DNA of 62,108 nt, counting the filler, from Squatina squatina (Eukaryota): assembly GCA_031763465.1 (NCBI GenBank). It is 4 parts of 4 records of this genome, joined end to end, with 100 filler letters (N's around TTAATTAATTAA, not from the genome) between each part and the next. Parts side by side here need not be neighbours in the genome. Positions count along the whole stretch, not along the records: positions 35,521 to 47,610 come from JARFOE010010642.1; 3 more parts are not named here. One strand, given 5' to 3'. A model generated the notes under the pieces. The model saw only the letters and a list, made by a program, of their open reading frames with translations, made no database searches and was not told the DNA's origin. Positions within the stretch are counted from its first letter, which is position 1. Every line of letters begins with the position of its first letter. Below, in pieces: positions 35,477 through 47,654 of the stretch. A program made the translations under genes and the position numbers.

Positions 35477-36179
35477 NNNNNNNNNNNNNNNNNNNNNNNN
35501 NNNNNNNNNNNNNNNNNNNNTCCGGGGAAATGTGGTAGTTTTTGAAACAAACAACAGGTCCCTGCTCAGTATATTAATTGTTGCGATCTTCCCTGATATC
35601 TAAGGGCCACAGTTGGTAAAGTGTCTCACAGCCTTACCAGGGGACAGACTCGGGGAAATGGGCGAACCTATAGTCCAGTTGTTTAAAATTTTGGGGGATT
35701 AAATGAATTGATATCAGTCACTATAGAGATGATCCACAAGGAGATATTTTATTTTCTCCCAGCCACATCAGTAGTTCTGTTAATAGGTGTCTGGGGCGGG
35801 GGCGACAGTGTTGTTAAATAGTTGGCGAGGGCAGAAGCTTGTATCAGAGAGCTGCAGGTAACCTCGTCACGGAAGTGATACAGAGGTTACAGAGGTGGAA
35901 AACAGAAAGGCCTGAGTGGATAAATCCCGGGAGCGGTTGAATGAGAGGAACAGGACCAGGTGGTGCCTGGACCCCGAACGTCAGTTGATGGAGGACAGGG
36001 ATAGATTGGCTAAAGATGTAGCGAAGTTAAAAGAAAAGTTGAAGAATCAGGAAAAGGGAGCAAGAATCACCGATGGGAATGACGTCTCCATCCAGTTGGT
36101 TAGGTCGGGGGGAAATTTCGCCAGTGAGGCAGAAGTGCAATATGGAGGCAATGCTTCAACCCCTCAAGTCATTCTCTAA

Positions 36180-39100
36180 GGATCTTTACTTTTATCCTAG
36201 GGGTGGCCGTGCCCTTATCGAGGCAAATGGGGAATGGCAGCGGGAAATATTAATGATTGACACCGGGTCCATGTTTACATTTGCGGATAATTCTGTTCCC
36301 CCATCTACAGTTATGACAATTCAGGTTGGCACTGGTGTCCCGGACCTAGTTCCTATCATGTGATCCAAATGAGGATTACCGTAGTTGTGGGTGGCTGCAG
36401 ACGATTATCTTTACAGAATTCCATGCGAGTTTTACACGGAACACCGACCCTTACACAATTAGGAGCAATTGTTGATCTGGCAAATATGCGGTTGCTGGGA
36501 AACAGAATCAGGAAATGAGCCGGTAACATTGTCAGTGGCTAATGCACTTGTTCCCATTAAGCTGGTTGGTCCAAAATCACAACTGACTCTTCCAACAGAC
36601 TGGAGAACGGAATGAGGACCCTTGTTGGCTGTCTGGGCCCCCACTCCTTGGCTGCCAGACGAATGTAGGTTGAGGTGGTCCCTGAAGGACGGGAAGCCCT
36701 TTCCCAGAGACAGTTCCCCATTTCTCCAAACGCATGAGAGGCAATTATTGAGACTTCACAGGGACTGAGAGACAAAAGCTTGTTTCGATCTTGTATCTCT
36801 TCATGTTTGCCTCCCGCATGGCCTGATCAGATGCCTGACAGGAGACGGCAATTCACGTTGGGTTATGGGGAACTAAAGAAGTGTCCCAGCAGGTGGGATT
36901 GGTGTTTGCAGCTTTGCCTGAACTTGATGGCGCGTTTGGATCCAGAATCACTATGGTTCACATTTCAGGACATTGCTGACGGTTTCTTGTCCCTCCATTT
37001 CCATCCAGACAGTCAGTATCGCACAGCCTTCACTGTGCCTGAAGTGCAGTACTCCTGCGATTGTTCACGGCAGTAAAACAGCTATTTAACCCAATTCCAT
37101 TTAGGGATCGAACCATCCAATATGTGGTCGACTTACTGATCCACTCTCTGTCTGTGGAACAACAAAATATCGAGGTCTGATGTTTGCTCCACATGTTGTG
37201 AGATGAAGATTTGCTGTGGAAACACACCAAAGCGCAGTTGTGCAAACCATGGGTTGTATGTCTGGGCGTTCAATTGCAGATCGAGGGCAAGTCCATTGCG
37301 TGGGATCGGAAAAGCCAACTGTTAAAGTTACCCCTCCTCGCCGACCATAAGGCAGCTTACTCCTCCTTGGGATTCACGGGGTTTATACAGAGTTTGTGCC
37401 CGACTATGCTCGAGTTGTTAAGCTACAACATGTGTCTCACTGCTCCACTGTTAAATGGACGGAGGAGTAAACTGTTGCTCCATCATGTCTAAAACAGCCA
37501 CTCAGCAGTGCACCCAAATTAATCGCCTCAGGCCTGCACAGACCCTTTATGATTTACCCCACGCTTTTTATATGACTATCACAGACATCACCGTACAGAC
37601 TGTGGGAACTCAGGAGCGCCTGGTTGCCCACATGAGCAATGTAGTGCATTCCCCCGAGATTAATTTCAACGCTTGTGAAAAAACCACACTAGATAGTCAT
37701 TGGAGTATTGGCAAAAATGAAATATTTGACTGGGATCAATCAGTTGTGTTGCGCTGCCACCATAATTCTCTGCAATTGATGAGAGGTGCTGATATTCAAT
37801 TGAGTTTTGTTTCCAGTGTGTGGATTCTGTCATGGATGTTCACTCTCCTGTCTGCTAATCATATGTTTGGACGGTTAAAGGAACCTCGCTCCGAGGTTAT
37901 GGGCCTTCTGCTAATGGACGAATCGCATGAACGTGAAGCACTCATGGCCCTTGCAGCAAATCCAGTGTTTGTTCAGGGTCGAGCAGTCGATGCTGACATG
38001 GCCGGGTTATAGATGGTAGTTGTTTTATTTAGGACAGTAGCCCTAACACGGGGTTTGCAGGCACTCTTACTGTGCAGGGTCTGGTCCAGCAGGATTGTGG
38101 ATTGAGAGTTAAAATGGCGGCGCACAGGCTGTGGAATTAATGGCCCTGGTACACATGGTAGACGAAGTCTTCGACACAAATTTAGATATTACAGTAGATG
38201 TAGATTCGGATTACCACTTTAAAGGTGTTCTACTCACATTAGAGCGTTGGACCCATAATAGTTTTATAGCAACTGATGAGTCAGATATTACGTGTATTTA
38301 TGGAAATATTTTAATTGACACAGCCGTTAGCAAAGGTGGAAAAATCTGAAAGGCTAAAGTTGATCACTCGTGAATAAACGGAATCTGGGGTCTTTTCAAC
38401 ATTGGTTTTGAGGTGGTTGATAAGGAAACCAAACAGCTGCTGTCGAGGGTCCATTACAGCAAAAAGAGAATTCAATGGCCTAGAATAAATGGGTCAACAG
38501 TTTTACTCCTGCAAACCAGGTGAGTGTCTGCAGCAGGAGAGTATAATCGGCTCAGGGACAGGCAAAGCTGTTCTGCAGAGATACAGCATCTGTCTGATGG
38601 CCGAGGGAGCCAATGGCAGAGGTGGTGGTGGGGGGGACACAGATCACGCATGATCTGGTCACGTGAAAGGTGGAGGAGGACCAATGAATGAATTGGTTGC
38701 TGAACCTGTTAGCAGACTCCCCAGGCCATGGATAGATGCCTCATTAGTTGGGGGCACCCGAAAGCAGAGGAGGCAGTGTCACGGTTAATAAACTTCGTCA
38801 TGTGGCGCAGATGAGAACGCGATGTGGCGACACATATAGAGATAAATTGTGCACAGCAAGATCCCGCATGTACAATCAAGAGACCATTATTCAGGCAGTC
38901 TCGCAGGAGGCCGTGGGAACGGATTCAGATTGGTTTTGTCGAGCCTGTCCCTGAAGTTGGTGGTGGTGGACGCATTGGCCCGGTGGGAAGAGACATTCCC
39001 CACGGCCAAGTGGAACAGGGCCACAGCTGCTCGAGTATTAGAACCGGAAATAATTGCATGTTGGGGATTGTAACAGGTTATTGACTCAGACAATGGCCAG

Positions 39101-39720
39101 GCATTTGTTGGAAAGTGTTTAACGAGTTCAATTAATTCTTGGGAACCCCATGGCAATTAAATATTCCGCATTATCCCCCGGCTTTGTTCAGGTGGACCGC
39201 TTGGATCAAAGGCTTAAATTTGTGTTGTCAAAAGTATAAGATCGGGCTGGGGGAGATTCATTCAATTTTCTGCCATTCGTAATCATGTGAGTGAGGACCC
39301 AGGTGAATTGAATGATTGGGCTTTCAGCAAATGAGGCATTGTCTGGCTGATCCATGCCAATACAGGAGAACCTGTTTGTACCTATGGACCCGCACCTGAC
39401 TTCCAAAACCGCGATGGAGGAGTGGGGCTCCTCACTCCAGAGGCACCTACATTTGTTTAGTGACATTGTGGGACACAATGATGCTGAGCAGGCAGCTCGC
39501 ATGAAAAAAGGAATTTGATGAGAAGGCTGACAGTCGTGTCTATCAGGCCGGGGATCAGGTTGTGATAATCAGAGACAGGAAGAGGGAAAAATTCCCCAAG
39601 GGAGTTTGAGATGGGCCCTAGAGAGTGATTGACCCGACAGAGAGATTGACAAATTGACTTCCTCTGTGTCATTCCTCCAAATGCATATTGCACATGTCAG
39701 GAACTGGATTGCTGAACAGC
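36180..39720 (+). mobile_element. Decayed endogenous retrovirus-like pol: protease, RT, tether (degenerate RNase H), RNase H, integrase
   Basis: PR LMIDTGS (~36255); RT PAWP..PD..FTLGYGEL, WFTFQDIADGFLSLHFHPDSQYRTAFT, QYVVDLLI (37121), KAQLC..V.CLG, SLGFTGF; tether ERLVAHMS..EINFNACEK..W..VVLRCHHNSLQ; RNase H VIDGSCF (38012), GAQAVELMAL, VDSDY; IN RPWERIQIGFVEPVP, LVVVD..RW.E.FPT, WGL.QVIDSDNGQAF, QVDRLDQRLK, YQAGDQV. Many stops and frameshifts. Confidence 0.88.
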
Positions 39721-40082
39721 AAAAAACTCAGCACCTGTTCAGGGCAACTCGTCAAAAAAACAAATGAAAAATGGTCAATCCAAGGCCAATCTGCTGGGCT
39801 CCCAGCTCCGTCAGGCTGCATGTTCTTTCAGACAGATTTTCAACAGGACGCCTGCAACCAGCTGCCTGACTGCACGAGCATGAATTGGGATAAATTCACG
39901 CTCGGCTTCAATCCACACACCTTCTTGACAAACTGTTCTCATTTTCCCCACGTGTGTAGCGTCGACAATCCCTCCGCGTTCTGTCCTCCGGCTCTCAAAC
40001 CAGCTCTGATTTTAAGTCAATCCCGCCTTCTGCAAAGCTGAAAAGAGATGAGAAGGCACTTGGGATTTGTACAAAAATGGTG

Positions 40083-40168
40083 GGGTTCCTCTGGGATTTG
40101 AACCCGGGACCTCTTGAAATATTAAAGTAATTCCTTATGCGAGAATCTTATCGCAAGACAAATGAACC
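40083..40168 (-). pseudogene. tRNA-Pro pseudogene with a 14-nt insertion in the anticodon loop
   Basis: Minus strand GGTTCATTTGTCTTGCGATAAGATTCTCGC-[21-nt loop]-TCAAGAGGTCCCGGGTTCAAATCCCAGAGGAACCC aligns to vertebrate tRNA-Pro; a T5 terminator follows. Confidence 0.75.
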
Positions 40169-40361
40169 GCTTGAAGGTAAAGCAATTCTGAGAATCACAG
40201 GGATTGATAGTACTGAGCTTGAATTCGCTGATTAGCGCCACCAGTGGATGATCAGAGAGAACGGGAGTGAACAGGAGGCAAAAATGTTGCTTTTTGTGGC
40301 CTGACTCCCTCCATGTGATGGGGAACATCAAAAACTGAAGTGTTTCAACGAATAAAGAGAA

Positions 40362-42327
40362 TCTCACACTCTTCAGGATCACTCTCCAAAGATCCCTGTC
40401 ACTCTGGAATCGAACACTCTCTTCGGGATCACTCTCTGCAGATCCCTGTCACACCAGGGTCTCACACTCTTCAGGATCACTCTGCACAAATCCCCGTCAC
40501 TCTGGAATCAGCCACTCCCTTCAGGATCACTCTCCACACATCCCTGTCCCTCCGGGCTCAGTCACTCTCTTCAGGATCTCTCTCCACAGATCCCCGTCAC
40601 TCCAGGGTCTCACACTCTTCAGGATCACTCTCCACAGATCCCCGTCACTCTGGAATCGAATACTCTCTTCGGGATCACTCTCCACAGATCCCTGTCACTC
40701 CAGGGTCTCACACTCTTCAGGATCACTCTCCACAGATCCCCGTCACTCTGGAATCTAACACTCTCTTCGGGATCACTCACCACAGATCCCTGTCACTCTG
40801 GAATCAGTCACTCTCTTCAGGATCACTCTCCACAGATCCCCGTCACTCTGGAATCAGCCGCTCTCTTCAGAATCACTCTCCACAGATCCCTGTCACTCTA
40901 GGGTCTCAAACTCTCTTCAGGATCACTCTCCACAGTTCCCCGTCTCTCTGGAATCAGCCACTCTCTTCAGGATCACTCTCCACAGTTCCCCGTCACTCTG
41001 GAATCAGCCACTCTCTTCAGGATCACTCTCCACAGATCCCTGTCACTCTGGAATCAGCTAATGTCTTCAGGATCACTCTCCACAGATCCCCCTCACTCTG
41101 GAATCAGCCACTCTATTCAGGATCACTCTCCACAGTTCCCCGTCACTCTGGAATCAGCCACTCTCTTCAGGATCACTCTCCACAGATCCCCCTCACTCTG
41201 GAATCAGCCACTCTATTCAGGATCACTCTCCACAGATCCCCGTCACTCTGGAATCAGCTACTGTCTTCAGGATCACTCTCCAAATATCCCTGTCACTCCA
41301 GGGTCTCACACACCTCAGGATCTCTCTCCACAGATCCCCGTCACTCTGGATTCGGACACTCTCTTCAGGGACATTCTCTATAGATCCCTGTCACTCCAGG
41401 GTCTCAAAATCTCTTCAGGATCACTCACCAGTGATCTCCGCCCTCTGGACTCGGTCACTCTCTTCAGGATCACTGTCCACAGTTCCCCGTCACTCTGGAA
41501 TCAGCCACTCTCTTCAGGATCACTGTCCACAGATCCCCGTCACTCTGGAATCAGCCACTCTCTTCAGGATCACTCTCCACAGATCCCCGTCACTCTGGAC
41601 TCGGACACTCTCTTCAGGGACATTCTCCATAGATCCCTGTCACTCCAGGGTCTCACACTCTTCAGGATCACTCACCACAGATCCCTGTCACTCTGGAATC
41701 AGCCACATTCTTCAGGATCACTCACCACAGATCCCTGTCACTCTGGAATCGAACACTCTCTTCAGGATCACTCTCCACAGATCCCTGTCTCTCTGGAATC
41801 AGCCACATTATTCAGGATCACTCTCCACAGATCCCCCTCTCTCTGGAATCAGCCACACTCTTCAGGATCACTCACCACAGGTCCCCGTCACTCTGGAATC
41901 AGCCATTCTCTTCAGGATCACTCTCCACAGATCCACATCACTCTGGAATCAGACACTAACTCCTGGATCACTCCCCACAGATCCCTGTCACTCCATGGTC
42001 TCACACTCTTCAGGATCACTCTCCACAGATCCCCGTCACTCTGGAACCAGCCACTCTCTTCAGGATCACTCTCCACAGATCCCCGTCACTCTGGAATCAG
42101 ACACTCTCTTCTGGATCACTCTCCACAGATCCCTGTCACTCCAGGGTCTCACACTCTTCACGATCACGCCACACAGATCCCCGTCACTCTGGAACCAGCC
42201 AATCTCTTCAGGATCACGCCGCACAGATCCCCGTCACTCTGGAACCAGCCACTCTCTTCAGGATCACTCTCCACAGATCCCCATCACTCTGGAATCGGAC
42301 ACTCCCTTCAGGATCGCTTTCCACAGA
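40362..42327 (+). repeat. Tandem repeat (minisatellite), about 40 units of 50 bp with an interspersed 48-bp variant
   Basis: Unit CACTCTCTTCAGGATCACTCTCCACAGATCCCCGTCACTCTGGAATCAGC; the variant has CAGGGTCTCA in place of TGGAATCAGCCA. Confidence 0.97.
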
Positions 42328-42385
42328 AATATTGTTTTCTGGCAATCTCGGCTCATTCATGTCAAATAGAAGCTTCCGGCACCCA

Positions 42386-42467
42386 GCTGTGATGGCCGAA
42401 TGGTTACGGCTTTTGACTCAAAATTCAATGTGGTTTCCCCAAGTCGGTTCAAACTCTGCTCACGGCG
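42386..42467 (+). pseudogene. tRNA-Ser(CGA)-derived pseudogene (anticodon now CAA)
   Basis: 82 nt, GCTGTGATGGCCGAATGGTTACGG..GACTCAAAATTCAATG..GGTTCAAACTCTGCTCACGGCG, colinear with vertebrate Ser-CGA; several stem mismatches. Confidence 0.8.
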
Positions 42468-42564
42468 GATTTGTTGGAGCAGCTTCCTACATTTTATTCC
42501 GCTCTCTCTGGAAGCCATTGGCTCTGAAGTTGGCCAAGACCTTCACCACTTCAATTGCAAAAAG

Positions 42565-42652
42565 GAGGCAGTGACCACATGCAAACACAATCCACTTGGG
42601 TGATAGAAATGATTTAATTCGAAGATTGCAAATTCGAGTCATGTCCATTATT
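42565..42652 (+). pseudogene. Heavily decayed tRNA-Arg(TCG)-like remnant with a possible intron
   Basis: 3' part GAAGATTGCAAATTCGAGTCATGTC resembles GAAGATTGCAGGTTCGAGTCCTGCC; weak 5' match GTGACC..ATG..ACTTGGG, with about 15 extra nt between. Confidence 0.4.
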
Positions 42653-42938
42653 TTCACACTGGTAAAGATTCCACTATTACCGCAACTATTTTACTTACCT
42701 CCATCATTGAAATTTTCCTGTGGCATTGTCTTAATCTAACATTCACTTTCACCTACTTACACCGTTAGGTTTGCTCTGCTACCACCACTGTTCTTGGGGG
42801 CACATGCCTCATTCACACCAATCTGAATTGTTGCTTTGAAACCAGTTGATATATTTAGACCTGTGGGACCGCTGGTCAGACAATCATTGCGAGAGCATGG
42901 CGGGCCGTCAGAAGCAAAATAGCCAGATTGCACATGAA

Positions 42939-42995
42939 CTTTCCTTGGCCTAATGGATAAGGTGTCTGACATCGCGGCTTATTGTAATCGGGATT
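42939..42995 (+). pseudogene. tRNA-Arg(TCG) 5' half remnant
   Basis: TGGCCTAATGGATAAGGTGTCTGACATCG versus consensus TGGCCTAATGGATAAGGCGTCTGACTTCG; the T arm is missing. Confidence 0.65.
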
Positions 42996-43092
42996 AGTGA
43001 CAGTGACAGATCATTCTGTGTCTCTTTTAACAGGGTGAGCTCACAGTCCCCAATCATTCTGAGTTAGTCCGTTTAAAAGGAGTGTGATTTCA

Positions 43093-43144
43093 GCTGTGCT
43101 GACCGAGTTGAAAAGTTGTTGTATTCGAACTTAAACTCGCAGCG
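43093..43144 (+). pseudogene. Internally deleted tRNA-Ser(CGA)-like remnant
   Basis: GCTGTGCTGACCGAGTTG..TTCGAACTTAAACTCGCAGCG keeps both acceptor strands but lacks about 30 nt. Confidence 0.5.
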
Positions 43145-43570
43145 CATCCATTCATTAATTCAAAATATGTTCATCGTTGGCTGGTGCCATCAATTTGCTC
43201 ACCATTCTTAGATGATTATTCTGTTCGGTGACATTAGCGCCCACGTGCCCTATTGTCTCAGGTGTTTGATTTCAATGCTCACGTTGATGTTAGCAGAATA
43301 TTGCAGGTTTCGGACCTTCCACGGTGGCTTAACTTACTGAGCAAAAAGGTTTTCTTCTTGTTCCGAATCTGTATCAATACCAACCGTTTCTGACAGCCCC
43401 TCACCTGAATATAGGGAGGGACTTTTAGCTTCCAAAGTTAATCATAAATTTTCAATATTGTCAATCCGGGTGCACGAACATAACAAGCGGTGAAGAGGAC
43501 TCTCTTGCAGAGTATTTCAGCTTGAATGCGAAATTAGGAAATGGAATGGCTGAGTCACCTGCAATGGGGC

Positions 43571-43652
43571 GACGAGGTGGCCGAGAGGTTAAGGTGCTGG
43601 CCTGCTAATCTGTTGTTTTCTGCATGCGTGGGCTCGAATCCCACCCTCGTCG
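43571..43652 (+). tRNA. tRNA-Ser(GCT), probably a pseudogene
   Basis: 82 nt, GACGAGGTGGCCGAGAGGTTAAGG..CTGCTAAT..GTGGGCTCGAATCCCACCCTCGTCG. Acceptor and T stems are intact, but there are anticodon-stem mismatches and T54>C. Confidence 0.8.
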
Positions 43653-43934
43653 TTACTTTGTTAAAATGCTGATTCATTTGATTGGTTTTTCCAATCACCT
43701 TAACTTTCATTTCCAAATTCAACTTTTGTCCCCTCACCTTCCATACTTAGCTCATGTCATGCCCCCAGATAGTGATGTATACTTTAAAGGGACAACATAT
43801 GTCGGATTATGTAGAGTGGGACTAATTAGAGAGCACTCTCACAAAGGACAGGTACGATTGGTTGAACAGCTTTCTTCAGCGCCATCAGAATCTGAGTATT
43901 CAATACAGAATGAATTGTGCCTTTGTTTGTTGGC

Positions 43935-44021
43935 AGCCTGTTGCTCCAGGGCTATGATTCTCTCCTTGTGGTTTTTGTAGCTAAGATGCGAGAGGTAGCG
44001 TGTTTAATGCAGATGGAGCCG
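43935..44021 (+). pseudogene. tRNA-Pro pseudogene with a 16-nt insertion in the anticodon loop
   Basis: AGCCTGTTGCTCCAGGGCTATGATTCTCTC-[23-nt loop]-GCGAGAGGT..GGAGCC aligns to tRNA-Pro GGCTCGTTGGTCTAGGGGTATGATTCTCGC..GCGAGAGGTC..GAGCC. Confidence 0.65.
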
Positions 44022-44384
44022 GTGGCTTTGAGTAAAATATCAGCCATGTTCTATTCCAGCTAATGGAAAATCTTCACATTTTGCTTTTCGCACCTATCAA
44101 CTCGTATTAATTGGGATAAACTTACATTCAACGTCAATCTCCACATCTTCTTGAAACACCCACTGTGCTGATTATTGGTCAGTCCCACTTTCTCTCGTGC
44201 CGAAAGGAGGTGAAAAGCTGCCCAGGATGCCTGCCCTGATTCAAAGGGCTGCGCACCTTCTCTTACGATTCATCAATTTACAGCCTTCCGTCCTCAGCAA
44301 TAAGTTCAAAAATTCGGATCCGAACAAGCGCTCCCACTGTTGGGGCAACGGGTGCAGGTAACGATTACATAAATATGATTATGT

Positions 44385-46510
44385 AGAATTTATGGCACAG
44401 AAACAGGCCATTCGGCCCAACCAATCCATGCTGACGTTTATGTCCGCTCGACCCGCCTCCCGTCTTCCTCATCTAAATCTATCAGCAGAAACCTCTATTC
44501 CCTTCTCCCTCCTGTGCTTGCCGAGACTCGCCTTCAATGCATCTATTCAATTCGCTTCAACCACTCCCTATGGTGGCGAGGTCCACATTCTCACCACGTT
44601 TTTTGGTAAAGTAGTTTCTTCTGAATTCCCTCTTGGATTTATTGGTGACTATCCTACATTGATGGCCTCCAGTTCTGCTCTTCTACACAAGTGGAAACAC
44701 TCCCGTTGTATCCACTGTATCAGAACCTTTCATAATTATAAAGAGCTCTATTAGGTCACCACTCAGTCTTTGTTCAAGGGAAGAGAGACCCAGTCTGGTC
44801 ACCGTTTCCCAATATGTACAACCTCACATTTTTGGTATCAAGTTTGTTGCAGTCCTCCTCAGCATTGACTTTGTATCCCGCTCCCCGCCTCGCCACCCCC
44901 GAATCTGGCGTCATCAGCAAATTTAGAAACAGTGTTTTTGATTCCAAAGTCTAAATCGTGAATGTAGTTGTGAACAGCAGCCTCTTCTCTGCACCCTCTT
45001 CAGCGCCTCTATATCATTTTTTATAATAACGTGACCAGAATTCCATGCAGCACTCTGTGTGGTCTAACCAAGATTCGATACAAGTTTAGCATCCATTCCA
45101 TACTTTTCAATTCTCTACCTCGAGAAATAAACCCGACTGCTTGGTTTGCTTTGTATTAGCCTTAGAAACCTGTGCTGCAACTTTTAAGGCCTTAAATCAC
45201 GATTTCCCTGGTGGGGATCTTGACTGATTCAATGCTTAGGCTGGTAACAGGTTACCAACGCTGAGCTTTGCGAGATTTTTGCAAAACTTGTACTGAAATT
45301 CTGTTATCGTTTTTAATGCATGGTTTTACCAGCATAAGACTTGTCAAAAACATTTAAATCGAAAAAAATAATGGTACATTAATTTAAAACCATTCCCAGG
45401 AAGGTGAGTAGGTTTTTATGCATTTTAAAAGACATATTTAAATTTAGAAAAAAATGACTTATTAATCTCCTTTTTATTAAGTTTTACTGTTGGAATAGTT
45501 TTCAAAATGTTTTCGGATGTGTTTGTGCTGTTTTTCATCTTTAATTCAATTGTTGACAGGTCTGTGATTGTTTGAGGCCTCCCATGTGAACTCTCCAGCC
45601 TGGACCGGGGACTTCCCCGGGAGTCTACAGAGCCCCGCTCCAAAACTCCAACTCAGGTGGGCTGAAACTCGCAGGGTTGCGTGGATCGAGGAATGTCAGG
45701 TAAGTACGTAAATAGTTTTTTGCCATCAGAGGCCTCCGCATACAGGAAGCCTCCGATCGGAAATTTAGGGCCAGTGTGAATTGTGTATTTTCACTCCTAG
45801 ATCTCTTTGCTTTTCTATCCCACCTAGAGTCGCAACATCCAAGTAATGAGTGAGCTCCCATTTCTTCCTACCAATTTGTAACAGCTCATATTTATCTGTT
45901 TCAAACTTAATTTGCCAATTATTTGCCCATTATGCAAATTTTATTAATGTCCTCCTGCAATTTATTGCAGTCCACCTCGGTATTTAATATGCCCCCCGCC
46001 ACACCCCCAATTTGGTGTCATCAGCTAATTTAGACACAGTGGTTTTGTTTCCAAAGTATAAATCGTGAATGAAAATTGTGAACAGCAATGATTCCAGCGC
46101 TGATCCTTGAGGAACACCACTACCCAATGTCTGCCACTGTGAACAGCTACACATTACTCCGACTCTCTTCTTTCTGTTGTGAAGGCAGCCAGCAACCCAT
46201 TCTGCTACCGGCCCGCTGACTCTGCATTCTCTGACCTTGATCATCATGGCTATATTATGGGGCACCGGTATAAGAACTTTTGGAAATCTAGATCAATTCC
46301 ATCTAATGAACCAGCATTGTTTATTATCTCTATTACCGCTTCAAAAATGTCATTAAGTTTGGTCAGGCAAGATTTTCCTTTTTGAAATCCATGCAATCTC
46401 TTCATGATTATATTCTTTCGTTTCTAGATGTTGTCCTTATTTTTCCTTCAGCAAGGATTCCATTATTCTTCGAACCACCTGTGTTGAGCTAACTGGTCTA
46501 AAATTCCCAG
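44385..46510 (-). mobile_element. CR1 LINE fragments (3'UTR and RT), interrupted by a DNA transposon
   Basis: CAGAAACAGGCCATTCGGCCCAAC 3' end; RT translation [46 protein letters not shown] (45984-46265). Confidence 0.85.
45188..45772. mobile_element. Non-autonomous DNA transposon with TIRs inserted into the CR1
   Basis: Left GGCCTTAAATCACGAT; right ATCGGAAATTTAGGGCC (reverse complement GGCCCTAAATTTCCGAT). CR1 sequence resumes on both sides; related ends occur at ~10100 and ~13618. Confidence 0.65.
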
Positions 46511-46525
46511 CATATGTTCGATCAC

Positions 46526-47215
46526 TGTAAGTCGCACACACTGCTCCCCAACCTGGAGTCTTCCTGTGCGATCGACAGCGCCCCGGACACTGTGTACAGG
46601 CAGAGAGTCGTCAGCCATCTGATGCTTCATGTTACAAGGACTTAAAGGCAAATGGACGTTTTGTGAGAGCGTTGCAGATGAACACACAACACACAGTGTT
46701 TAATTCTCAAGAGAGAGTAGGAACTTTATTATCTTTCAATATTGTTTTCTTTACACACACTATTAACAATGGAAAACCTGAGGGAGACCAGCGCTTTCCA
46801 TTCCTAGGTCAGATTGAGGAGCCCCAATTTAGACAGGCCGTCCGAATAGCCTCTAAATACTAGCCCACCAATTCTACCATTATAGCAGAGTGGCCGCTTA
46901 GCCCCCACTGTTTGAGGCCCCGCCGGTTCGGGAGAGTGTAGCCCACGTGTGCTATGCTCACCAATCCAATGATATCTGCGTAGTTGGAAACCACGTGGCT
47001 CACTCTAATGGCGTCCGTTCAGAAGGGTGAAGGTCTTCCAAATGAATGGGTCTTTAAAATGCGTGGGGTACAGCAAGGAAATGCTGTCCCAAGTCTTTGT
47101 TTATGGTCGATTGTTTTGAAACCAGTTTATTTAAGTGGGAGGGGTGGTGTCCCCAGCCACCGTATGTATTCATCTCCTGGGCTGAGTAAAAGTCCATTTT
47201 AGGTGTCTGATAACA
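46526..47215 (-). mobile_element. Possible LTR (~690 bp)
   Basis: Begins TGTAA where the CR1 breaks off and ends TAACA; internal TTTATT (AATAAA on minus) at ~46725. No clear TSD, PBS or PPT. Confidence 0.35.
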
Positions 47216-47654
47216 GTAAGAATAAAAAAAGCTCTCTGTATATCTTTGCGAATGTTGTTATGTTGGTAATTTTAACAGTTGCAAACTGTAAAATCATGTC
47301 TTCCCAGCACCTGGGCCTCGATGTTCTGTTAGTTGTTAAAATAAAAGTGTCTTCAGCTCTTGTGGCTGGAGTTTCTAATTACCATACGTACTTTCTCTGT
47401 TGATTGAGAGGAGTCCGCAGGTTTTTCACCACCTGCCAGTTCGAAGTCCACATTTTAAATTCCTGACCCCTGTCCACCATTTTGTTCCTGGCCTCAAAAG
47501 TATGCAGCATTTTGGCCCAATTCTTACAATCACTGTAGAATTGTGCCCAAATTGAGACTTTCTGGACAATAAACTGGGCCTTAAAATGGAGTCTTGAAAA
47601 ACAAAATGGANNNNNNNNNNNNNNNNNNNNNNNNNNNNNNNNNNNNNNNNNNNN

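What the first reader, a model, noticed from the sequence alone, without database searches (positions are those of the whole stretch)
36180..39720. Ancient retrovirus-like element with two RNase H domains (candidate lokiretrovirus or spuma-related ERV)
Seen in sequence: the order PR (DTGS), RT (YVVD, from YVDD), a Ty3-like RNase H/tether ('RLVAHMS..E.NFNACEK..W..V.LRCHH..LQ'), a second RNase H with a D-E-D triad (IDGS, AQAVEL, DSDY), then integrase ('PWERIQI.F..P.P', 'WGL..IDSDNG.AF'). Established: ordinary Ty3/Gypsy elements have one RNase H, while tether plus acquired RNase H marks Retroviridae and their sister lineages (lokiretroviruses, Odin). Inference: the still Gypsy-like tether with the YVDD-type RT suggests a basal, possibly undescribed chondrichthyan lineage. 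No env, LTR or PBS could be confirmed.
Basis: partly seen in the sequence, partly recalled or inferred. Interest (0 to 1): 0.7.

Follow-up and report, generated by a model that had tools for sequence, protein, structure and literature searches.

The report
Dead snakehead-side retrovirus, not a lokiretrovirus
This is a broken copy of an old retrovirus family with the two-RNase-H layout that all retroviruses share; it groups with retroviral fossils already catalogued in turtles, so it is likely a new family of a known kind, with an envelope gene of unassigned type.

Summary
All nine motifs are present, and 36205-39670 aligns end to end (PR-RT-tether-RNase H-IN) with intact retroviral Pol proteins, through 17 frameshifts and 17 stops. 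RT and RT+tether trees place the family inside canonical Retroviridae (100/99). Grouping with lokiretroviruses is rejected (AU p 0.039, 0.013); grouping with Gypsy is rejected only on RT+tether (p 0.03; RT alone 0.06). It is not inside the foamy clade, though a sister position is not rejected. Its clade (97/96) includes frog proteins and a protein near-identical to turtle ERVs that Xu et al. 2018 list, by tip order, in clade Huo. Other contigs supply what the window lacks: TG..CA LTRs of 500-590 bp, 5-bp target-site duplications, a likely tRNA-Trp primer site, an amber gag/pol junction as in snakehead retrovirus, and an env-like gene directly before a 3' LTR. That env is not gamma-type and matched nothing tested. 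The integrase leans towards lokiretroviruses (82-93% support; not significant). The host class was not verified. Verdict: a new family of a known ERV group, of modest interest.

The parts
35521..36145 (+). 3' part of gag (capsid region and coiled-coil end), cut by the contig start; broken by stops and frameshifts; no zinc knuckle
   Evidence: 72-79% nt match to many copies; family gag resembles frog relative P0030, E 1e-5; no CCHC motif in 28 loci
36205..36500 (+). aspartic protease (DTG motif at 36259), broken
36705..37450 (+). reverse transcriptase (YVVD here, YVDD in other copies), broken
37531..37863 (+). tether: degenerate Ty3-type RNase H without the catalytic acidic motif
   Evidence: Pfam RT_RNaseH E 0.015; HMM E 2e-18; copies compared
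38001..38458 (+). second, retroviral RNase H with D-E-D residues (the fourth D is visible in L004 and L016), broken
   Evidence: Pfam RNase_H E 0.009; HMM E 7e-17; tree
38755..39670 (+). integrase (zinc-finger remnant, core, C-terminal domain), broken; similarity to the family ends here and env and the 3' LTR are missing
   Evidence: family matches end at 39632-39673

Best explanation
The stretch is a truncated, inactive copy of an endogenous retrovirus family that groups inside canonical Retroviridae, likely in the snakehead-retrovirus-related 'clade Huo' / class III assemblage. Shown from separate copies: LTR, primer site, gag, amber codon, pro-pol with tether plus second RNase H, env-like gene, LTR, and 5-bp target-site duplications. 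Inferred: the live virus primed reverse transcription with tRNA-Trp, made Gag-Pol by reading through the amber codon, used the second RNase H as the nuclease and the tether as a structural connection, and entered cells with a furin-cleaved envelope whose membrane subunit was about 430 residues. After entering the germ line it left solo LTRs, decayed copies and a deleted non-autonomous subfamily. The window copy lost env and both LTRs and was later duplicated as dead DNA.
For: RT tree, 63 rows: canonical retroviruses including the family 100/99; loki 100/100 and foamy 100/100 are separate clades. RT+tether tree, 52 rows, gives the same result. AU tests: with loki p 0.039 and 0.013; with Gypsy p 0.03 on RT+tether. 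An 11-row clade with frog P0022/P0030, P0024 and P0169/P0197 has 97/96. P0024 is near-identical to turtle ch_my_ERV6 and ch_pi_ERV11 of PMC6001957, listed among the clade Huo tips. P0169/P0197 are also sister in RNase H (99/98) and integrase (100/99). LTR plus primer site in 6 of 30 LTR loci. Perfect 5-bp duplications at 5 of 9 solo LTRs. In-frame amber at the junction in 7 of 17 aligned copies, as in SnRV. Env-like gene directly before an LTR in L178.
Against: The base of the canonical radiation is an unresolved polytomy. The family does not group with SnRV itself, and a sister position to foamy viruses is not rejected (p 0.47). On RT alone, Gypsy is not rejected (p 0.06). Clade Huo membership rests on the tip order of a figure read as text. 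The integrase groups with loki, at 93/89 and 82/88. Family rows were read with a guide that includes P0169, which may favour that sister. No complete provirus is assembled; the layout comes from separate contigs. The tRNA match is below Rfam's threshold and ARAGORN found nothing.
Confidence: 0.82

Rival explanations
1. It is a lokiretrovirus (or Odin-like element), the first from a cartilaginous fish.
For: Dual RNase H with a Ty3-like tether. The integrase groups with loki plus frog and coelacanth 'NYNRIN-like' proteins (93/89, 82/88). The env has a furin site, a long membrane subunit and a cysteine spacing that by eye resembles loki Env.
Against: The five loki references form their own 100/100 clade. 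AU rejects joining them (p 0.039, 0.013). RT identity of L024 is 33-35% to loki against 45-50% to the turtle/frog clade. Its RNase H does not group with loki plus foamy. PMC7947760 found 0 of 3 chondrichthyan genomes positive.
Confidence: 0.05
2. It is a spuma-related (clade Tu, foamy-like) ERV, or the sister lineage of foamy viruses.
For: YVDD motif; no zinc knuckle; best PDB match of the integrase is PFV (E 2e-11); long env membrane subunit; a sister position is not rejected (p 0.47).
Against: It lies outside the 100/100 foamy clade in RT, RNase H and integrase trees. An in-frame amber gag/pol junction is unlike foamy pol expression (recalled). No profile match to 16 foamy Env or to foamy Gag. 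The closest relatives are the turtle and frog ERVs.
Confidence: 0.1
3. It is a Ty3/Gypsy retrotransposon that independently gained a second RNase H.
For: AU on RT alone does not reject Gypsy (p 0.06); the tether is Ty3-like.
Against: AU on RT+tether rejects it (p 0.03). Both trees separate Gypsy at 100/99-100. The second RNase H is sister to that of P0169/P0197. An env-like gene and amber junction are present.
Confidence: 0.03

Closest known systems
Turtle ERVs ch_my_ERV6 / ch_pi_ERV11 (Xu et al. 2018, PMC6001957; clade Huo by tip order), represented here by P0024; frog proteins P0022/P0030
   Same: One RT clade (97/96); shared V-V-A-[AS]-x-P-E and LPQGY.D signature; gag similarity to P0030; the same short spacer between LTR end and primer site is visible in the ch_my_ERV6 excerpt.
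   Different: Only 45-48% RT identity to L024; a different primer site in that excerpt; their env was not visible to compare.
Unnamed intact Pol proteins P0169/P0197 (Logan contigs, host unknown)
   Same: Sister in RT, RT+tether, RNase H and integrase trees; collinear over 1170 residues.
   Different: 50% RT and 55% IN identity to the best-kept copies; intact rather than decayed.
Snakehead retrovirus (L186/P0039; matches the SnRV row in the supplement of PMC7947760)
   Same: Canonical RT with YVDD, tether plus RNase H, in-frame amber gag/pol junction.
   Different: 38% RT identity; not its sister; SnRV Gag has a zinc knuckle; no env or gag similarity.
CmiERV lineage I of elephant shark (Han 2015, PMC4422223) and frog/coelacanth 'NYNRIN-like' ERVs (P0031, P0044, P0023)
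   Same: SnRV-related ERV in a cartilaginous fish; dual RNase H; similar integrase.
   Different: A separate RT branch (P0031/P0044/P0023; CmiERV compared by eye only). By my reading of its DNA, CmiERV has a gamma-type env, a zinc knuckle and another primer site.
Lokiretroviruses (Wang and Han 2021, PMC7947760) and Odin (PMC9040795)
   Same: Tether plus second RNase H; possibly a related integrase and env layout.
   Different: RT is not in the loki clade; RNase H is not of the loki/foamy group. Odin lacks env and was not available as sequence.
Ovex1/SpeV (PMC2717909)
   Same: Amber gag/pol junction, no zinc finger, coiled coil in Gag, long env lacking the immunosuppressive motif and CX6CC.
   Different: Ovex1 is single-copy, without LTRs and under purifying selection; its sequence was not in my trees.

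Membership tests
Canonical Retroviridae (ERV) | RT inside the canonical clade, apart from loki and Metaviridae | tested here: met
   100/99; AU
Canonical Retroviridae (ERV) | PR-RT-tether-RNase H-IN order | tested here: met
Canonical Retroviridae (ERV) | LTRs (TG..CA), primer site, target-site duplication | tested here: met
   in other copies only; absent from the window
Canonical Retroviridae (ERV) | env between pol and the 3' LTR | tested here: inconclusive
   Position, furin site and membrane helix fit; no Pfam, database or profile match
Clade Huo / SnRV-related class III ERVs | RT groups with elements assigned to clade Huo | tested here: inconclusive
   Groups with P0024, near-identical to ch_my_ERV6/ch_pi_ERV11 (97/96); their Huo placement is read from tip order; Huo was not recovered as one supported clade in my trees
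Clade Huo / SnRV-related class III ERVs | gag and pol in one frame, separated by an amber codon, as in SnRV and Ovex1 | tested here: met
   7 of 17 aligned copies amber, 1 ochre, 9 sense; PMC2717909 passage
Lokiretrovirus | RT in the loki clade, sister to canonical retroviruses | tested here: not met
   AU p 0.039, 0.013
Lokiretrovirus | RNase H grouping with loki and foamy (group I) | tested here: not met
   (loki+foamy 84/59; family elsewhere, with P0169)
Lokiretrovirus | integrase of loki/CGIN1 type | tested here: inconclusive
   93/89 and 82/88; canonical monophyly not rejected, p 0.085; no mammalian NYNRIN in the tree
Lokiretrovirus | Env similar to Mononegavirales F (PF00523) | tested here: inconclusive
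   No Pfam hit on broken frames; model pLDDT 38; layout similar by eye only
Spumaretrovirinae / clade Tu | RT within the foamy clade | tested here: not met
   outside the 100/100 clade; sister position not rejected, p 0.47
Spumaretrovirinae / clade Tu | foamy-type Env and Gag | tested here: not met
   hhalign probability under 1% against 16 foamy Env and against foamy Gag; weak test on fragments
Spumaretrovirinae / clade Tu | accessory genes and internal promoter | not tested
   In L178 the env end lies about 30 bp before the LTR, leaving no room in that copy
Odin retrotransposons | RT sister to loki; no env | tested here: not met
   RT not beside loki; env-like gene present. No Odin sequence was available
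Metaviridae (Ty3/Gypsy) | single RNase H; RT within Gypsy | tested here: not met
   AU p 0.03 on RT+tether, 0.06 on RT

The most novel reading that the evidence does not exclude
This family and its turtle and frog relatives form an unnamed, early-branching lineage of canonical retroviruses that kept a lokiretrovirus/NYNRIN-type integrase and a paramyxovirus-F-like envelope. That would link loki and canonical retroviruses through env and integrase, against the published view that their envelopes have separate origins, and would offer a donor lineage for mammalian NYNRIN.
Probability: 0.2. Interest if true: 0.65.

Novelty: new member of a known kind. Interest (0 to 1): 0.33.

Why it matters
As a locus it is dead DNA. 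As a family it adds a branch, with LTR, primer site and env, to a poorly resolved part of the retrovirus tree near SnRV and the class III ERVs. If the host is a cartilaginous fish, it extends a turtle/frog clade to that class. The env type and the loki-leaning integrase are the two points that could bear on how retroviruses and lokiretroviruses gained their envelopes; both can be tested on intact relatives.

Tried and rejected
Env identification failed throughout: Pfam on X-read frames; a homologue search with the stop-free C-terminal piece, 0 of 188 candidates; tblastn against the long ORFs of 36 viral records, best E 0.016; hhalign against foamy, delta and SnRV Env (one of three rows of the C-terminal profile was in the wrong frame, so that half is weak); AlphaFold pLDDT 38 and Foldseek with no hit at E 0.001. 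The Atlas could not read the sequence. The Gag model had pLDDT 41 and was not searched. The homologue search with the integrase returned two class I ray/skate ERV proteins and a Gypsy, not family members. Arachnid Gypsy proteins topped the RT profile search through repeated domains and were discarded. The AU test with SnRV did not finish. A PDB search with one unshifted RNase H frame of L004 found nothing. Splicing as the origin of the deleted subfamily was rejected: no acceptor AG at the junction. Sequencing runs: 4 small-share rows, no RNA holder listed, none laid. Earlier findings: nothing by sequence or words. No date: no provirus with both LTRs is assembled and no host rate is known. Host class: no tool call tested it.

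Full report
Setting. The finding lies in the third stretch of the pack (35521-47610), which is contig C10642 of a 1.52-Gb assembly in 1.15 million contigs. The contig starts inside gag.

Observation. All motifs are present in order. Pfam sees RNase_H, RT_RNaseH, RVT_1 and rve weakly in the raw frames. A frameshift-aware alignment with X at breaks spans residues 11-1176 of an intact 1215-residue Pol (score 778 against 33-44 for three shuffles), with 17 frameshifts and 17 stops. The tether (37531-37863) lacks the catalytic motif. The second RNase H (38001-38458) has D-E-D, and the fourth aspartate is visible in L004 and L016. Two RNase H-type domains are therefore real, and the copy cannot encode a working protein.

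The family. A DNA search of G000 gave 49 matches from 40 scored candidates, mostly 67-79% identical. Three close copies (K2P 0.055-0.127) share 2 of 2, 4 of 6 and 3 of 7 of the window's breaks, and L003 also shares the 3' flank, so they are likely duplications of dead DNA; L004 is at K2P 0.30. Upstream of gag in other contigs lies an LTR of 500-590 bp with TG..CA ends. It is followed by a primer site in 6 of 30 LTR loci. Of 9 solo LTRs with both ends located, 5 have a perfect 5-bp duplication, 1 has one mismatch and 3 have none. The primer site is complementary to the 3' end of a degenerate tRNA with CCA in the anticodon position (E 0.009, below Rfam's threshold; ARAGORN negative); tRNA-Trp also fits my recall of that sequence. 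At the gag/pol junction 7 of 17 aligned copies carry an in-frame amber codon, 1 an ochre and 9 a sense codon (one misaligned row of 18 dropped); SnRV has the same amber arrangement. No zinc knuckle was found in 28 loci. Overlapping contigs (L096, L147, L178, L179, L181) carry, after integrase, a broken gene with a furin-type site, a cysteine-rich stretch and a membrane helix (hydropathy 3.2), ending about 30 bp before an LTR in L178; the part after the furin site is about 430 codons. No immunosuppressive motif was found, and CX6CC appeared only in stop-ridden frames. The window copy leaves the family at about 39670 and has no env or LTR. A deleted subfamily shares one junction that removes most of the protease, in 10 of 15 junctions located among 21 loci (one spurious hit dropped, one contig-truncated copy counted by eye), then loses the rest of pol and carries its own tail; it likely spread using the proteins of full copies.

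Placement. References came from a profile search of 1.84 billion proteins and IMG/VR. SnRV and loki rows were identified by matching the supplement of PMC7947760, and PFV through the PDB. In RT (63 rows chosen from 111) and RT+tether (52 rows) trees the family falls inside canonical retroviruses at 100/99, with loki and foamy as separate 100/100 clades and an unresolved base. AU tests reject joining loki (p 0.039, 0.013) and, on RT+tether, Gypsy (p 0.03). They do not reject Gypsy on RT alone (p 0.06) or a sister position to foamy viruses (p 0.47). With short fragments added, the family joins P0169/P0197, the frog proteins P0022/P0030, P0024, P0045 and P0120 at 97/96. P0024 is near-identical to turtle ERVs ch_my_ERV6 and ch_pi_ERV11 in the data of PMC6001957, which the tip list of its S2 figure places between SnRV and the foamy group, in the clade Huo part (branches not visible). 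RNase H and integrase confirm P0169/P0197 as sister. The integrase of this group clusters with loki and frog/coelacanth integrases at 93/89 (LG+G4) and 82/88 (PMSF, three rows left out), but monophyly of canonical integrases is not rejected (p 0.085); PMC9040795 warns that such trees are unreliable.

How it likely worked. Shown: the parts and their order, pieced from separate contigs. Inferred from established retrovirology: tRNA priming, amber readthrough, RNA removal by the second RNase H, integration with 5-bp duplications, solo LTRs by recombination, and cell entry by a cleaved envelope. Nothing indicates present activity or co-option.

What is known. SnRV-related ERVs are described in elephant shark (PMC4422223) and clade Huo in all major vertebrate groups (PMC6001957). 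Lokiretroviruses were not found in 3 chondrichthyan genomes. The dual RNase H is general to retroviruses. This family's own RT motifs had no hits in the visible part of the PMC6001957 supplements or the PMC7947760 supplement. Both files are cut, so an existing description may be hidden there, and Repbase/Dfam could not be searched. Eight paper searches turned up no description of it. Read: PMC7947760 parts 1-2 of 4 and supplement passages; PMC9040795 parts 1-2 of 4; PMC6001957 parts 1-2 of 5, S2 figure text and supplement passages; PMC4422223 part 1 of 2 and supplement part 1; PMC10699275 part 2 of 4; bioRxiv 10.1101/2021.11.23.469661 part 1 of 6; passages only of PMC2717909, PMC9447858, PMC13524379, PMC12287698 and PMC3670739.

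Verdict. A real, decayed ERV of a probably unnamed family in a known group: new member of a known kind, interest 0.33. The unassigned env and the loki-leaning integrase keep a more interesting reading open at about 0.2.

Noticed in passing
L011, L012, L015, L017, L080, L082, L085, L087, L088, L092 (also L081, L091, L094 by blast): Non-autonomous deletion subfamily: gag, start of protease, start of RT, then a private tail of over 800 bp. It outnumbers full copies among the loci fetched.
   Followed up: partly
L025-L051 (26 loci): The genome holds several other canonical ERV lineages: 21 rows near SnRV and the frog/coelacanth group, 4 with P0059/P0101, 1 class I; none grouped with loki (FastTree). 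Some have open frames of 700-1200 codons.
   Followed up: partly
P0031, P0044, P0043, P0023 (frog, coelacanth): Proteins annotated NYNRIN-like or Gypsy integrase-like are ERV Pol with dual RNase H, and their integrases cluster with loki; candidates for the NYNRIN donor lineage.
   Followed up: partly
window 40365-42327: Tandem array of a 50-bp unit, about 40 copies, 82% matches; it produces long spurious ORFs.
   Followed up: no
window 42386-42467: tRNA-Leu(CAA) called by ARAGORN directly after the array.
   Followed up: no
window 39706-40080: Low-copy sequence after the element, shared with C899660 (92%) and C525842 (81%); not part of the family env.
   Followed up: partly
L020/L152 (C1:6.594 Mb): An LTR fragment is joined directly to the integrase core: another internally deleted copy.
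   Followed up: no
L165-L175: A 280-bp piece of the deleted subfamily's tail recurs in another repeat, followed by a 21-bp tandem array.
   Followed up: no
L123, L125, L126, L120: A longer LTR variant (555-590 bp) with an insertion in its 5' part.
   Followed up: no
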